Part shown: piece by piece, positions 19,596 through 22,722 of the stretch
Numbering within the stretch: the first letter of the stretch is position 1
Layout: every line of letters starts with the position of its first letter
Assembly: GCF_000253055.1 (NCBI RefSeq)
Contig: NC_016070.1
Location: 1,080,001 to 1,112,000, forward strand
DNA length: 32,000 nt
Source: Thermoproteus tenax Kra 1
GTDB taxonomy: Archaea; Thermoproteota; Thermoprotei; Thermoproteales; Thermoproteaceae
Reading direction: 5' to 3'
The notes under the pieces: generated by a model
Told to the model about the DNA's origin: nothing
What the model saw: only the letters and a program-made list of their open reading frames with translations
Databases searched by the model: none
Translations under genes and position numbers: made by a program

Positions 19596-20591
19596 GTGGA
19601 GGACGTACTGAAGCTGGCCAGACTCTTGGAGCTCTTCGCCGATAGGGCGGCTGAGTCTCTGCCGCCGCCTCCGCCGGAGGAGGTGGAGGGGCAGGAGGGC
19701 GCAGTGGACTGCCCGTACTGGGGGGTCTCGTGGGAGACCGCCGAGCCCCCGGGCGGTCTGTGGGCCTTGGACAGCCAGACGTCGGTGGTGGAGTTCGAGG
19801 GCGCCTCAGTTATAGTCGCCACAGGGGCCCTAGTGGGGGCCGGCGTTGCGCTGGTCCCCGGACTGGGGGCGAGGTGGTTGGGCCTGAGGTTCAACTTCCC
19901 CTGGAGGGATCCTCCGCCCGACCTGGGGCCGAGCTTCTACGTAGTCTCGGAACACGCAGGGGTGGTCTTCGACTCGCGGGTGGACCTAGAGACGGTAAGA
20001 GACGAGGTGAGGTCCGGAGTGGAGCTCGCCCTGGCCAAGGCTTGGGACAGATCGGGGTACCTCCTGGTGGATGGCCCCATCTTCAGAGCCGCGGGCGCCG
20101 CCGAGAGGGGCGGGATCGCCGGCGCCATATACAGAGGGATAATGGAGAGCAGGGCCTCCGCCTTGAGGGGCAGAGCGGTGGGAGTGGTGAAGAGGATAGA
20201 GAGGGCGACCTATCTGGCCCAGTGCGTGGGGGAGGGCGCCAACGACGAGGTGGCCGCGAGGAGGCTGTTGGACGGGAGGCCGGGGAGAGTGGGGCCCATC
20301 GCGGTGACCGCCGCGGGGCTCACCAAGTGGGTGTACTACGTGGGGTCCCCCACGGCGAGGGGGATCAGAGTCCTCAGAGTGGAGGCGATGTCCCCCGAGG
20401 TCGCCGAGGAGGCCGCCTCCTGGCTTCCGGCTTTGGCAGGCGCCGACGGAGTGCCGATACCCATATCCGTAGCCGACAGGATCGCTAGGAGGCTCAACGC
20501 GGGGGCGCTCAAGGTGCTCTACGGAGCGACGCGGGCCGAGCCCACCTACAGCGGCTACGAGGTCTTGGCCAGGGCGTTCCAAGAGCTGTGA
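19596..20591 (+). CDS. nurA: NurA-domain 5'-3' nuclease
   Basis: 331 aa with a GTG start 22 nt downstream of the A/T-rich AATTTATTTA (19569-19578). NurA-like motifs are [25 protein letters not shown] and [13 protein letters not shown]. Confidence 0.65.
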
Positions 20592-21155
20592 AATACCTCC
20601 TGGAGGCTGTGGGGGCCAGAGGAGGCGCGAGGAGGATACTGTCGGGCGGCGGAGAGTGCCCGGACCCCAGGTCCCTCCCCGAGCTGCACACGGCGCTGGC
20701 GCTCGGCGGCGGGGTAGAGCTGGAGCTCGCGGCGACCGACACGCCCGAGTCGGCCGCAGCGGCGAGGAGGCTTCTGGAATGCGCCGAGAGGCTGGGCGTT
20801 GCAAGACCGGCGGGCTTCTTCGTAGTGAGGGGGGCTGGCGCCGGGGTCCCTCTCGGGGGCCGCCGAGCTCTTCGACAACGCCGCCTTGAGGCTTCTGAGG
20901 AGGAAGAGGCAGGTGGAGGCCTACGTTGGGCTGACGTCGGGCTGGAGGATTCTGTCCATCTATCTGGCGCTGGCGGCCTGGGTCGCGGGGGCGGTGCCCG
21001 TCTACGTGGACAAATCGGGCGTCCTCCACGCTCTGCCTAGGGTCGCCCTCAGAGCTGAGGATCTGCCGAGGGAGCTACTCTATAGGGAGGACGGGAGGCC
21101 CAGGAGGTGGTTCGAGGAGCTCAGCCGAAGTGGACAGCCCTCTTCTTCACTTTGA
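20588..21155 (+). pseudogene. Small stand-alone CARF-like protein interrupted by a +1 frameshift in a G5 run
   Basis: GTG 20588 overlaps the nurA stop (GTGA). The first frame is good up to [14 protein letters not shown]. The second frame is open from 20829 and reads [52 protein letters not shown]. Removing one G from GGGGG (20855-20859) gives a 189-aa product. Its core pattern parallels the Csa3 CARF core in this window. Confidence 0.4.
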
Positions 21156-22722
21156 CGTAGAGGGGGTAGCGGTAGGCGAAGCTGGCGAAGTAGGCGAGGC
21201 CCCTCTCGGCGTAGGCGATAAACCTTCTGTCCCCCGCGGGGACCCCCAGCTTCTCCAAAACCTTCAGATCGCTGCGGAGCACAACCTTGGTGTTGGCCAA
21301 CTGGAGGACCACGTCGTTGAGGTCGTCGGGCATATGGGTGGCGAAGACCACGCCTATCCCCCTGGCCCTCCCCAGCCTCGTGAGGCGGGTGAGGTGGGCC
21401 TCTATAAACGCCTGTTCGTCCTCGTTGCGCGTCTGGGGGAAGAAGAGGTGCGCCTCGTCTATCAGAACGGCGGTCGTGGGGCGGGCCACTCTGTAGACTG
21501 CGTCCAGCACCCGGTAGACCACCAGCCGCTGCTGGTGCGTGTTGAGCCCGGAGAGGTCGACTACGGCGTAGCCCGAGAGGACCCTCCCGTAGTCCGGCTC
21601 GCCCACCTTGGCGCCGCCCGCCGTCTCTACGTCCACGAGCTCGGTCTCCACCAGGGCCAGGATAGCCCTCACGATGTTCTCCATCGTGCTCACGTGGAGG
21701 CCCAAGTCGTTCCCCAGCTTCTCGTAGTTGACTAACGGCCTCCCCCTCTGGACGTCGTCTGAGGGCGAGGTGAGCCACTGGAATAGGGGCTCGGCCGAGA
21801 GAGAGCCGGCCTTCTCGGCGGCCTTCTGGAGGACCCTCCTGTAGAATATACGGGCCTGTTGGGTCAGAATGGGCATAGCTCTGTGCAACTGAGGGAGCAC
21901 CGAGGGGCTCTTGAGGGCCCACGGGTAGACCTCCAGCCTCGCCGGCCCGGGCTCCACTATCTCCAGCTCTATGCGGGAGAGGGCCTTCCCCCTCCGGAAG
22001 ACCCTCGCCTTGAACTTCCCCCTCCGCCCCCAGAGCGCCCTGGAGGCGGCCCGCCTCGCTATTGCCCTGGGGCCCCTTTTGGCGAGCCCCCTTGTGACAG
22101 GGAGCAGCACTTTGACCGGGACGCCGTTGTAGGCCAAGTGGTAGAAGTGCCCTACGGCGTCCAGCGCAACTACGTTCTGCCCCGCGTTGGCCAACTGGAG
22201 GGCTATCTCTTTGACCAACACAGTTTTGCCCGAGCCCGTTGTGCCCACGACCAACAGATGGTGCCTCAGAGCCTCGAGGGGGAGGTACACCGGCTCTCCC
22301 TCCAGCGCCTGTCCGGCGGGCAGTGCCAGGTCCCCCAACAGGACGCCCTGGCGCGGGAGCGAGAGCATGGCCCCCACCTCGCCCGGCCCCGGCGCCCTCA
22401 CTTCTGCGTGTATGGGGACCGGAGTGGCGGGCGGGCCGCAGACGTCGCCAGAGCACTCCGCCACAAGCTCTAGGACGGCCACGGCAGGCCCCAGCCTGAG
22501 CGGCATGGCTCTCTCCTGCTCCGGCGTGAGGACGGGCGTCTTGGCAACGGAGTAGATGTCCTCCAGATAGACCTCCCTCACCTTGGCCAGCCACTTCCTC
22601 CCGCCGCCCTCAACGACTAGGTACGACCCCACCGGCGCCTCGCACGTAAGAAGGGCGTAGGCGGCGGCCTCCTCGGAGCTCACCGAGCTTTTGAACTGGC
22701 GCGAGACAAAGCCGCAGGCCAC
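21121..22722 (-). CDS. herA: HerA/DUF87-family hexameric ATPase (FtsK-HerA superfamily)
   Basis: 533 aa with a GTG start. Walker A is [12 protein letters not shown] and Walker B is [14 protein letters not shown]-terminal [11 protein letters not shown] is present and the N-terminal region looks barrel-like. It is convergent with the CARF-like ORF and overlaps it by 35 nt. Its start lies 34 nt from the CRISPR-3 leader block. Confidence 0.85.

What the first reader, a model, noticed from the sequence alone, without database searches (positions are those of the whole stretch)
19596..22722. NurA nuclease + stand-alone CARF-like protein + HerA ATPase wedged between two CRISPR arrays: candidate ligand-gated DNA-degradation module
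Seen in the sequence:
- A NurA-type ORF (ALDSQ, LLVDGPI, VGVVKR motifs) whose stop overlaps (GTGA, 20588-20591) the start of a small ORF.
- After removing one G from the G5 run at 20855-20859, that small ORF reads as a single 189-aa protein. Its core [34 protein letters not shown] parallels the CARF core of the Csa3 in this same window (RVVLAGGPRLLVLLALLASLLRRSEVYVLPE). It has no recognisable effector domain.
- A HerA/DUF87 ATPase ([15 protein letters not shown]) is convergent with the small ORF, overlaps it by 35 nt, and starts 34 nt from the CRISPR-3 leader block.
- The trio is bracketed by arrays 2 and 3.

Established knowledge: HerA-NurA is a helicase-nuclease DNA end-resection pair. HerA-family ATPases paired with other effectors (SIR2-HerA, DUF4297-HerA) are anti-phage systems. 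CARF domains sense cyclic oligoadenylates.

Inference: this may be a signal-gated HerA-NurA DNA shredder acting as a CRISPR ancillary or abortive-infection module. I know of no characterised CARF + NurA + HerA system.
Basis: partly seen in the sequence, partly recalled or inferred. Interest (0 to 1): 0.8.

Follow-up and report, generated by a model that had tools for sequence, protein, structure and literature searches.

The report
Known CRISPR-linked NurA–CARF–HerA gene cluster
This is the Thermoproteus tenax copy of a nuclease–sensor–helicase gene trio whose link to CRISPR arrays in this group of archaea was published in 2012; its biochemistry is still untested, and in this genome the sensor gene carries a one-base frameshift.

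Summary
Window 19596-22722 encodes a NurA nuclease, a small frameshifted CARF-only protein and a convergent HerA ATPase, lying between the leader ends of two CRISPR arrays.

The window is Thermoproteus tenax: its HerA is 100% identical to the T. tenax protein.

The trio is not new. Bernick et al. 2012 (PMC3396285) described it as the CRISPR-associated "nurA-csm6-herA" cluster of Pyrobaculum, Thermoproteus and Vulcanisaeta. Later surveys list it again. PADLOC holds full-length profiles for all three proteins: "NurA, Type III coevolved" (4e-112), "HerA, Type III coevolved" (2e-210) and "CARF_m4" (9e-69).

The predicted structure confirms a CARF fold. The nearest solved structures are Crn1-type ring nucleases, but both catalytic positions (Ser, Lys) are Arg in T. 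tenax.

- Ortholog alignment puts the frameshift in the G6 run at 20829-20834, not the G5 run at 20855-20859.
- Two unrelated genes also lie between the arrays.

A cyclic-oligoadenylate-gated HerA-NurA machine is a reasonable idea, but it is an untested inference, and as sequenced the gate gene is broken here. I found no biochemical study. Verdict: already known, modest interest.

The parts
15237..17020 (-). CRISPR array 2. Repeat is GAATCTCAAAAAGAGGATTGAAAG read on the minus strand; 25 exact copies plus 2 degenerate copies.
17021..17312 (-). Leader of array 2, 83% identical to the array-3 leader, pointing toward the trio.
   Evidence: blastn of the array-3 leader against the window
19596..20591 (+). 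CRISPR-associated NurA nuclease, 331 aa. The acidic residues invariant across this clade are intact (D59, D136/E137, E143, D159, E263, D294).
   Evidence: Pfam NurA 7e-17. PADLOC PDLC01056 'NurA, Type III coevolved' 4.4e-112, full length. Eight-sequence alignment A3.
20588..21155 (+). Stand-alone CARF protein of the CARF_m4 family, called 'csm6' by Bernick 2012. 188 aa after repair; interrupted by a +1 frameshift. Its start overlaps the nurA stop (GTGA).
   Evidence: PADLOC PDLC01985 8.8e-69. Intact orthologs of 186-189 aa with 57-79% identity. AlphaFold2 pLDDT 87.9. Foldseek best matches are CARF proteins.
20829..20834 (+). G6 homopolymer run carrying the extra base that breaks the CARF reading frame.
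21121..22722 (-). CRISPR-associated HerA-family ATPase, 533 aa, with Walker A at residue 160 and Walker B at 419. Convergent with the CARF gene, with a 35-nt 3' overlap.
   Evidence: Pfam HerA_C and DUF87. PADLOC PDLC01055 'HerA, Type III coevolved' 1.7e-210. 100% identical to T. tenax HerA. Motif positions.
22754..23069 (+). Leader of array 3, homologous to the leaders of arrays 1 and 2.
   Evidence: (families D8, D10)
23070..24141 (+). CRISPR array 3. Repeat is GAATCTCAAAGAGAGGATTGAAAG; 16 exact copies.

Best explanation
**What is shown.** This is the Thermoproteus tenax copy of the already described CRISPR-associated nurA-CARF-herA accessory cluster of the Thermoproteales. The cluster holds three genes:
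- a divergent NurA nuclease whose conserved acidic residues are intact;
- a translationally coupled CARF-only protein of the small CARF_m4 family;
- a HerA-family hexameric ATPase.

**What is inferred.** A CARF dimer binds a cyclic oligoadenylate made by the host's type III system. This is probably cA4, as for other crenarchaeal CARF proteins. Through contact with NurA and/or HerA, the CARF dimer switches on ATP-driven unwinding and degradation (or processing) of DNA. That would add a DNA-directed arm to the RNA-directed Csx1 encoded in the same window.

In the T. tenax / P. neutrophilum lineage the two residues Crn1 ring nucleases need for catalysis are both Arg. This protein therefore looks like a sensor rather than a degrader of the signal.

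**State in this genome.** As sequenced, the T. tenax CARF gene carries a +1 frameshift in a G6 run. Either the gate is inactive in this strain, or the extra G is a sequencing error, or expression needs slippage.
For: **Identity**
- Full-length PADLOC matches for all three proteins.
- HerA is 100% identical to the T. tenax protein.
- The cluster is published.

**CARF fold**
- AlphaFold2 models with pLDDT 83-88.
- Foldseek best matches, E about 1e-8 and TM 0.64-0.72 normalised to the query: Sso1393 and the Sis0811 ring nuclease. Next come Cami1, Csm6, Cam1, Csa3 and Cad1.
- The residues invariant in the family lie in loops that bind ligand in solved CARF proteins (my knowledge): G9, D51/T52, T116, G118.

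**Functional coupling**
- nurA and the CARF gene overlap (GTGA here, ATGA in MAG locus L001).
- The P. arsenaticum operon nurA-CARF-CARF-herA has overlapping junctions at nurA/CARF and CARF/herA.
- Synteny is kept down to about 40-50% HerA identity, always beside type III, type I-A or adaptation genes, or an array.

**Intact enzymes**
- NurA keeps the invariant acidic residues.
- HerA keeps Walker A and B.

**cOA signalling in the same window**
- Csx1 (CARF-HEPN) at 237-1523 and Csa3 at 6499-7167.

**Sensor rather than ring nuclease**
- Their equivalents are R11 and R120 in T. tenax.
Against: - No binding, interaction or activity data exist for any member. I found none in the held literature.
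- No tool here could test a contact between the CARF protein and NurA or HerA.
- The CARF gene is frameshifted here, and independently in P. aerophilum at a C6 run, seen in three assemblies. The module may therefore tolerate, or even favour, loss of the gate.
- Related CRISPR-linked NurA-HerA pairs occur without a CARF gene, as in the Sulfolobales MAG locus L010. CARF control is not obligatory.
- Some CARF_m4 orthologs keep the Ser/Lys pair (P. calidifontis and related MAGs) and could be ordinary ring nucleases.
- No type III effector genes lie inside this window.
Confidence: 0.55

Rival explanations
1. Adaptation or repair helper (the 2012 proposal). HerA-NurA resects DNA ends to generate prespacer substrates, or repairs the array after integration. 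The CARF protein merely ties this activity to CRISPR signalling.
For: - Bernick et al. proposed this role.
- In the uncultured Thermoproteota locus L007 the genes are embedded in an adaptation operon: csa1-cas4-cas1-CARF-cas2-cas6-nurA-herA-CARF.
- In T. tenax the trio faces two array leaders and lies near the I-A adaptation genes cas4, cas1/2 and csa1.
- Vestergaard 2014 classes the pair as "Types I + III-specific".
Against: - In V. distributa the trio sits between two type III interference cassettes.
- In P. aerophilum it sits beside a type III cassette and Csx1 genes.
- Shah 2018 scores the pair as co-evolving with type III.
- CARF sensors are normally coupled to effectors of interference, not of adaptation (established knowledge).
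Confidence: 0.25
2. The small protein is simply a Crn1-like stand-alone ring nuclease that switches off cOA signalling, for example to Csx1. It has no regulatory link to HerA-NurA.
For: - The closest solved structures are the ring nucleases Sso1393 and Sis0811.
- There is a weak NCBIfam 'CRISPR system ring nuclease' hit.
- The P. calidifontis-type orthologs keep the Ser and Lys.
- The longer second CARF in the P. arsenaticum and P. aerophilum operons (256 / 248 aa) keeps the same Ser and Lys motifs.
Against: - T. tenax and P. neutrophilum have Arg at both catalytic positions, and P. aerophilum has Thr/Asn.
- The Pfam Cas_APE2256 score is below the gathering cut-off, 22.0 against 24.8.
- The gene is start/stop-overlapped with nurA and has kept its place next to nurA and herA across genera.
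- It lacks the C-terminal wHTH domain of Crn1.
Confidence: 0.15
3. In this particular strain the module is decaying. The CARF gene is a genuine pseudogene, so HerA-NurA act unregulated or not at all.
For: - A +1 frameshift in a G6 run.
- Only the 89-aa C-terminal fragment of the T. tenax gene appears in the protein libraries (P0108).
- A second frameshifted gene lies in the same 32-kb window.
- P. aerophilum shows an independent frameshift in three assemblies.
Against: - nurA and herA are full length with conserved motifs.
- Both halves of the CARF ORF remain 79-82% identical to the intact P. neutrophilum protein with no further lesions. The event is therefore recent, an artefact, or bypassed by slippage.
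- Only one T. tenax assembly is available, so a sequencing error cannot be excluded.
Confidence: 0.3
4. This is the housekeeping HerA-NurA end-resection pair for homologous recombination, and it lies near the CRISPR arrays by chance.
For: NurA and HerA domains are present with catalytic motifs.
Against: - NCBIfam double-strand-break-repair HerA models score 33-38 bits against cut-offs of 800-970.
- No mre11 or rad50 gene lies in the window.
- The nearest relatives are all CRISPR-linked.
- Bernick 2012 shows at least three nurA-herA pairs per Pyrobaculum genome, with a separate recombination pair.
Confidence: 0.03

Closest known systems
CRISPR-associated nurA-csm6-herA cluster of the Thermoproteales. 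Sources: Bernick et al. 2012, PMC3396285; 'Cas HerA/Cas NurA' of Vestergaard 2014, PMC3973734; clusters 57/58 'Type III coevolved' of Shah 2018, PMC6546367; PADLOC PDLC01055, PDLC01056 and PDLC01985.
   Same: Same three gene families. Same order and orientation as P. neutrophilum Tneu_1143-1145 and P. calidifontis Pcal_1294-1296 (nurA+, CARF+, herA-). Same position next to CRISPR arrays. All three proteins match the profiles over their full length.
   Different: In T. tenax the CARF gene is frameshifted. Two unrelated genes (a NosD-like protein and a 2-hydroxyacid dehydrogenase) lie between array 2 and nurA.
Crn1 ring nucleases of the APE2256/CARF7 family: Sso1393 (PDB 3QYF), Sis0811 (PDB 7PQ2, 7PQ3) and Sso2081 (PDB 7YGH).
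   Same: CARF fold. These are the best structural and sequence matches in the PDB. Shared motifs: 'TDT' and 'T-x-G'.
   Different: The catalytic Ser and Lys are replaced by Arg and Arg. A roughly 38-residue helical tail replaces the wHTH domain. The Pfam score is below threshold. The gene is embedded between nurA and herA.
Canonical archaeal HerA-NurA end-resection complex (herA-mre11-rad50-nurA operon).
   Same: HerA-family ATPase paired with a NurA-domain nuclease that keeps its acidic residues.
   Different: Very low similarity: the HerA equivalog models are far below cut-off, and NurA has no PDB sequence match at E<=1. There are no mre11 or rad50 neighbours. A CARF gene and CRISPR arrays are present instead.
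Bacterial HerA-scaffolded anti-phage systems (SIR2-HerA, DUF4297-HerA; PMC11291478).
   Same: A HerA-family ATPase paired with a nucleic-acid-directed effector in a defence context.
   Different: The partner here is NurA plus a CARF sensor. The NCBIfam 'HerA_antiphage' model scores 28.9 bits against a cut-off of 800. The lineage is archaeal and linked to CRISPR.

Membership tests
CRISPR-associated nurA-CARF-herA cluster (Bernick 2012; Shah 2018 clusters 57/58) | NurA protein of the CRISPR-linked ('Type III coevolved') clade | tested here: met
   PADLOC PDLC01056, 4.4e-112, residues 1-331 against profile 1-310/310
CRISPR-associated nurA-CARF-herA cluster (Bernick 2012; Shah 2018 clusters 57/58) | HerA protein of the CRISPR-linked clade, encoded adjacent to nurA | tested here: met
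   PADLOC PDLC01055, 1.7e-210, full length. The orthologs are all next to nurA.
CRISPR-associated nurA-CARF-herA cluster (Bernick 2012; Shah 2018 clusters 57/58) | APE2256/'csm6'-type CARF gene between or beside nurA and herA | tested here: met
   PADLOC CARF_m4, 8.8e-69. The gene is frameshifted in this genome.
CRISPR-associated nurA-CARF-herA cluster (Bernick 2012; Shah 2018 clusters 57/58) | Location next to a CRISPR array or cas genes | tested here: met
   Arrays 2 and 3 flank the locus, and a type I-A cassette lies at 4203-12711.
CRISPR-associated nurA-CARF-herA cluster (Bernick 2012; Shah 2018 clusters 57/58) | A paralog distinct from the recombination herA/nurA pair of the same genome | not testable with these tools
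   The T. tenax genome could not be fetched, and the paralog search found no T. tenax protein. Indirect support: the repair-HerA equivalog models are far below cut-off, and Pyrobaculum genomes have at least three pairs.
CARF domain superfamily | Rossmann-like CARF fold with conserved loops after strands beta1 and beta4 | tested here: met
   AlphaFold2 pLDDT 87.9 and pTM 0.86. All 50 listed Foldseek matches are CARF proteins (52 matches at E<=0.001). G9 and T116-x-G118 are conserved.
CARF domain superfamily | Binds a cyclic oligoadenylate as a homodimer | not testable with these tools
   Requires ITC or EMSA with cA3, cA4 and cA6.
Crn1 ring nuclease (APE2256/CARF7) | Catalytic Ser (Sis0811 S12) and Lys (K169) | tested here: not met
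   The equivalents are R11 and R120 in T. tenax.
Crn1 ring nuclease (APE2256/CARF7) | Pfam Cas_APE2256 above the gathering score | tested here: not met
   22.0 bits against a cut-off of 24.8
Crn1 ring nuclease (APE2256/CARF7) | C-terminal wHTH domain (as in Sis0811 and Sso1393) | tested here: not met
   Only two short helices follow residue 150. The wHTH domain is described.
Canonical double-strand-break-repair HerA-NurA | Meets the NCBIfam HerA equivalog models (NF040819, NF040937) | tested here: not met
   38.5 and 33.1 bits against cut-offs of 970 and 800
Canonical double-strand-break-repair HerA-NurA | Operon with mre11 and rad50 | tested here: not met
   The Pfam hits of the neighbouring ORFs include no Mre11 or Rad50.
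Anti-phage HerA systems (SIR2-HerA, DUF4297-HerA) | HerA_antiphage equivalog and a SIR2 or DUF4297 partner | tested here: not met
   28.9 bits against a cut-off of 800. The partner proteins are NurA and a CARF protein.

The most novel reading that the evidence does not exclude
CARF_m4 is a dedicated cA4-sensing subunit that has lost ring-nuclease chemistry (Arg/Arg in T. tenax and P. neutrophilum) and licenses a HerA-NurA DNA-degrading machine. In addition, the homopolymer tracts inside its gene work as a reversible on/off switch for that gate, either by slipped-strand phase variation or by +1 slippage. The tracts are G6 in T. tenax and C6 in P. aerophilum. At each one the P-site tRNA can re-pair perfectly in the +1 frame and restore the ortholog sequence. 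Against a programmed event: the two sites differ, and most orthologs are intact.
Probability: 0.1. Interest if true: 0.6.

Novelty: already known. Interest (0 to 1): 0.28.

Why it matters
The finding adds no new kind of system. The gene cluster, its link to CRISPR and its family profiles are already published.

Its remaining value is as a pointer to an unanswered question: what does the CRISPR-linked HerA-NurA pair do, and does its CARF partner gate it with cyclic oligoadenylate? If that were shown, it would be a multi-subunit, ATP-driven DNA-degrading output of type III signalling. That would differ from the single-chain CARF nucleases characterised so far.

Three details established here could help in choosing orthologs for experiments:
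- the corrected frameshift site;
- Arg/Arg at the ring-nuclease positions in T. tenax and P. neutrophilum;
- the one-CARF and two-CARF operon layouts.

For such work, use the intact P. neutrophilum, P. calidifontis or P. arsenaticum genes, not the T. tenax gene.

Tried and rejected
- **Tandem Repeats Finder** returned nothing for the CRISPR arrays. I used the repeat finder instead.
No systematic census across GTDB was possible.
- **An exact look-up of the T. tenax HerA** found no record. I could not inspect the rest of the T. tenax genome for a herA-mre11-rad50-nurA operon or for type III cassettes.
- **A search with a paralogous Pyrobaculum HerA (P0065)** found no T. tenax protein. That test was inconclusive.
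- **The 2020 CARF classification paper** is not held. The link between the PADLOC name 'CARF_m4' and that paper rests on my own knowledge.
- **A recurrent frameshift, considered and rejected.** I first read Bernick's 'Pars_1109/10' and 'Pogu_1166/7' as further frameshifted csm6 genes. The P. arsenaticum locus shows two separate intact CARF genes of 179 and 256 aa. P. oguniense was not checked.
- **A conserved programmed frameshift, considered and rejected.** The T. tenax and P. aerophilum sites are at different codons (about residue 82 against about residue 53). Orthologs in P. neutrophilum, P. calidifontis, P. arsenaticum and several MAGs are intact.
- **Distant NurA-HerA pairs.** The Aeropyrum and Thermosphaera pairs (HerA 30-35% identical) have no cas neighbours and belong to another paralog group. 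I did not count them as members.
- **NurA has no PDB sequence relative at E<=1**, so I checked catalytic residues by conservation within the clade only.
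Full report
**1. What is in the window**

The 32-kb window carries three CRISPR arrays:
- array 1, 1877-4014, plus strand;
- array 2, 15237-17020, reverse orientation, with a repeat that differs by one base;
- array 3, 23070-24141, plus strand.

All three have homologous leaders of about 300 nt.

Between arrays 1 and 2 lies a type I-A cassette:

| Gene | Coordinates |
|---|---|
| cas4 | 4203-4775 |
| cas1/2 | 4759-5553 |
| csa1 | 5643-6479 |
| csa3 | 6499-7167 |
| cas7 | 7593-8582 |
| cas5 | 8579-9262 |
| cas3' | 9252-10952 |
| cas3'' | 10949-11629 |
| cas8a2 (csa4) | 11626-12711 |

A Csx1 gene (CARF-HEPN) lies at 237-1523.

Between the inward-facing leaders of arrays 2 and 3 lie five genes:

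| Gene | Coordinates | Strand |
|---|---|---|
| NosD-like beta-helix protein | 17344-18615 | - |
| 2-hydroxyacid dehydrogenase | 18664-19569 | + |
| NurA | 19596-20591 | + |
| small split ORF | 20588-21155 | + |
| HerA | 21121-22722 | - |

The HerA protein is 100% identical to the annotated HerA of Thermoproteus tenax, found on a contig of 1,841,542 bp. The window is therefore T. tenax.

**2. Checking the observation**

- the GTGA overlap at 20588-20591;
- the 35-nt convergent overlap at 21121-21155;
- a gap of about 31-34 nt between the herA start and the leader of array 3.

The small ORF is split between two frames, and deleting one base gives a 188-aa protein.

Four intact orthologs of 186-189 aa align end to end.

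- With the G5-run repair the junction reads [17 protein letters not shown].
- Removing one G from the G6 run at 20829-20834 gives [17 protein letters not shown], against P. neutrophilum VVRGLAPGSLTGAAELF.

In the AlphaFold2 models, the mean pLDDT of residues 81-90 rises from 66 to 82 with the G6 repair. The second model also used a deeper alignment, so this is only weak support.

**3. What the three proteins are**

*NurA.* It passes the Pfam NurA threshold, 62 bits against 21. It matches the PADLOC profile "NurA, Type III coevolved" over its full length at 4.4e-112. Across eight CRISPR-linked orthologs, down to 26% identity, these residues are invariant: D59, D136/E137, E143, D159-G-P, K199/R200, E263 and D294. 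The nuclease is probably active. This is an inference from conservation, because no PDB sequence relative exists at E<=1.

*HerA.* It has Walker A and B motifs and matches Pfam HerA_C and DUF87. It matches PADLOC "HerA, Type III coevolved" at 1.7e-210. It scores only 33-38 bits against NCBIfam double-strand-break-repair HerA models whose cut-offs are 800-970, and 29 bits against the anti-phage HerA model.

*The repaired small protein.*
- It matches PADLOC "CARF_m4--CARF" at 8.8e-69, residues 1-172 on profile 1-158/158, continuously across the frameshift.
- It matches Pfam Cas_APE2256 just below threshold.
- Its model (pLDDT 87.9, pTM 0.86) is a Rossmann-like alpha/beta domain followed by two short helices.
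The best matches are Sso1393 and the Sis0811 ring nuclease (E about 1e-8, TM 0.64-0.72), then Cami1, Csm6, Cam1, Csa3, Cad1 and Sso2081. All are CARF proteins.

There is no effector domain.

The family is very small. A profile search of 1.84 billion representative proteins found nine hits at E<=0.001. Only four are of the short type, and two of those four are the T. tenax and P. aerophilum fragments.

**4. Is the association real, and is it known?**

The same genes recur together with CRISPR components in other genomes:

| Genome or locus | Arrangement |
|---|---|
| P. aerophilum | type III RAMP and Csx1 genes, nurA, CARF_m4, long APE2256 CARF, herA, cas6 |
| V. distributa | Cas10/Csm cassette, nurA, herA, APE2256 CARF, CRISPR array, Cmr cassette |
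| Uncultured Thermoproteota contig | csa1, cas4, cas1, CARF, cas2, cas6, nurA, herA, CARF |
| P. calidifontis | nurA, CARF_m4, convergent herA, with a 38-repeat array about 5 kb away |
| P. arsenaticum and several MAGs | nurA, CARF_m4 (179 aa), long CARF (256 aa), herA, with overlapping junctions at nurA/CARF and CARF/herA |
| MAG locus L001 | exactly the T. tenax layout, including the 35-nt convergent overlap |
| Sulfolobales MAG | nurA-herA between two type I-A cassettes, without a CARF gene |

More distant NurA-HerA pairs in Aeropyrum and Thermosphaera have no cas neighbours.

This picture is already in the literature.
[quoted passage not shown] They show at least three nurA-herA paralog pairs per genome, with a separate recombination pair. 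Their table lists a P. neutrophilum layout matching this window: Crispr9, nurA+, csm6+, herA-, Crispr10.
- Vestergaard 2014 lists "Cas HerA" and "Cas NurA" as specific to types I and III.
- Shah 2018 lists clusters 57 and 58 as "Type III coevolved".
- A 2023 large-scale clustering study lists NurA and HerA among putative CRISPR auxiliary genes.
- The PADLOC profile names show that the CARF partner has been classified too.

I found no biochemical study of the trio.

**5. How it probably works**

*Shown:*
- an intact-looking NurA;
- an intact-looking HerA;
- a CARF-fold protein translationally coupled to NurA;
- conserved synteny with CRISPR-Cas;
- other cOA-responsive proteins, Csx1 and Csa3, in the same window.

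*Inferred:* the CARF dimer senses a type III second messenger and controls HerA-NurA. The messenger is probably cA4, by analogy with crenarchaeal Csx1, Csa3 and Crn1.

One result bears on the alternative that the CARF protein is just a ring nuclease. [quoted passage not shown] Using the HMMER alignments to Sis0811 and Sso1393 and the family alignment, the equivalent positions are:

| Ortholog | Ser position | Lys position |
|---|---|---|
| T. tenax | Arg (R11) | Arg (R120) |
| P. neutrophilum | Arg | Arg |
| P. aerophilum group | Thr | Asn |
| P. arsenaticum | Ser | Asn |
| P. calidifontis group | Ser | Lys |
| Long APE2256 CARFs (second gene in two-CARF operons) | Ser | Lys |

A plausible division of labour is that the short CARF_m4 acts as the sensor and the long CARF acts as the off-switch. 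This is speculation.

Single-CARF modules keep a conserved C-terminal tail, LPRELLY..RPRxW.EEL.RSG. It aligns with the start of the C-terminal domain of the long CARFs. The short CARFs of two-CARF operons lack it. That pattern is compatible with the tail being a docking element.

The 2012 authors proposed a role in adaptation. The adaptation-operon context of locus L007 keeps that rival alive.

**6. The frameshift**

As sequenced, T. tenax cannot make the full CARF protein by standard decoding. P. aerophilum has an independent +1 insertion in a C6 run at the conserved TDTPES motif. It is present in three assemblies, while a close relative is intact (P0107).

In both cases the homopolymer would allow perfect +1 re-pairing of the P-site tRNA. 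However, the sites differ and most orthologs are intact. Mutation, or for T. tenax a sequencing error, is the simplest reading.

A second gene in the window is also frameshifted near 26465-26480. It is an NADH-oxidase-like gene starting at 25411. Frame errors or lesions are therefore not unique to the CARF gene in this assembly.

**7. Verdict**

Novelty is "already known". This is the same cluster, in a genus for which it was already reported, with family profiles already available in public databases.

Interest is modest. The value lies in the still-open biochemical question, not in the discovery of the locus.

Noticed in passing
window 25411-26750, shift near 26465-26480: An NADH-oxidase / pyridine-nucleotide-disulphide-oxidoreductase-like gene changes frame. 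Frame 0 reads ...AMIKGQNK. The conserved C-terminal part (ARYYPGGGEVVIKLVADG...) continues in the +1 frame. The 893-aa ORF listed at 25411-28092 is therefore an artefact of read-through in the wrong frame. This is a second frameshifted gene within 32 kb.
   Followed up: partly
L003 about 8895-8905 (also L004, L005); P. aerophilum: The P. aerophilum CARF_m4 ortholog (PAE0124) has an independent +1 frameshift in a C6 run (ACCCCCCGAG) at the conserved TDTPES motif. It is present in three separate assemblies. A close relative (P0107, 183 aa) is intact.
   Followed up: yes
L012 1632-5605 (P. arsenaticum); L003 7711-11608 (P. aerophilum): A second operon layout exists: nurA, short CARF_m4, long APE2256 CARF (248-256 aa, keeping the Crn1 Ser and Lys motifs), herA. 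All are on one strand, with overlapping junctions at nurA/CARF and CARF/herA. What the 2012 paper wrote as 'Pars_1109/10' is two genes, not a split gene.
   Followed up: yes
window 3501-3570 and 23408-23477: Arrays 1 and 3 each hold a spacer with 93% identity to the other across a repeat-plus-spacer unit. These are two variants of the same protospacer, suggesting repeated acquisition from related invaders.
   Followed up: no
window 15237-17020 compared with 1877-4014 and 23070-24141: The array 2 repeat differs from the repeat of arrays 1 and 3 by one base (GAATCTCAAAAAGAGG... against GAATCTCAAAGAGAGG...). Array 2 is inverted, and its two leader-distal repeats are degenerate.
   Followed up: partly
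window 12721-15258: Four sizeable ORFs between cas8a2 and array 2 have no Pfam match at E<=0.001: 12721-13578, 12966-14015, 14079-14732 and 14608-15258. A cas6 or another accessory gene might be expected here, but none was identified.
   Followed up: no
L010 5775-9707 (Sulfolobales MAG): A related nurA-herA pair (HerA 32% identical) follows a CsaX gene between two type I-A cassettes and has no CARF gene. CRISPR-linked NurA-HerA pairs therefore also exist without a CARF partner.
   Followed up: partly
window 17344-19569: A NosD-like beta-helix gene and a 2-hydroxyacid dehydrogenase gene lie between array 2 and nurA. The dehydrogenase stop is only 26 nt upstream of the nurA start. By the published array coordinates, the P. 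neutrophilum locus (3.8 kb between arrays) has no room for them, so they look like an insertion specific to T. tenax.
   Followed up: partly
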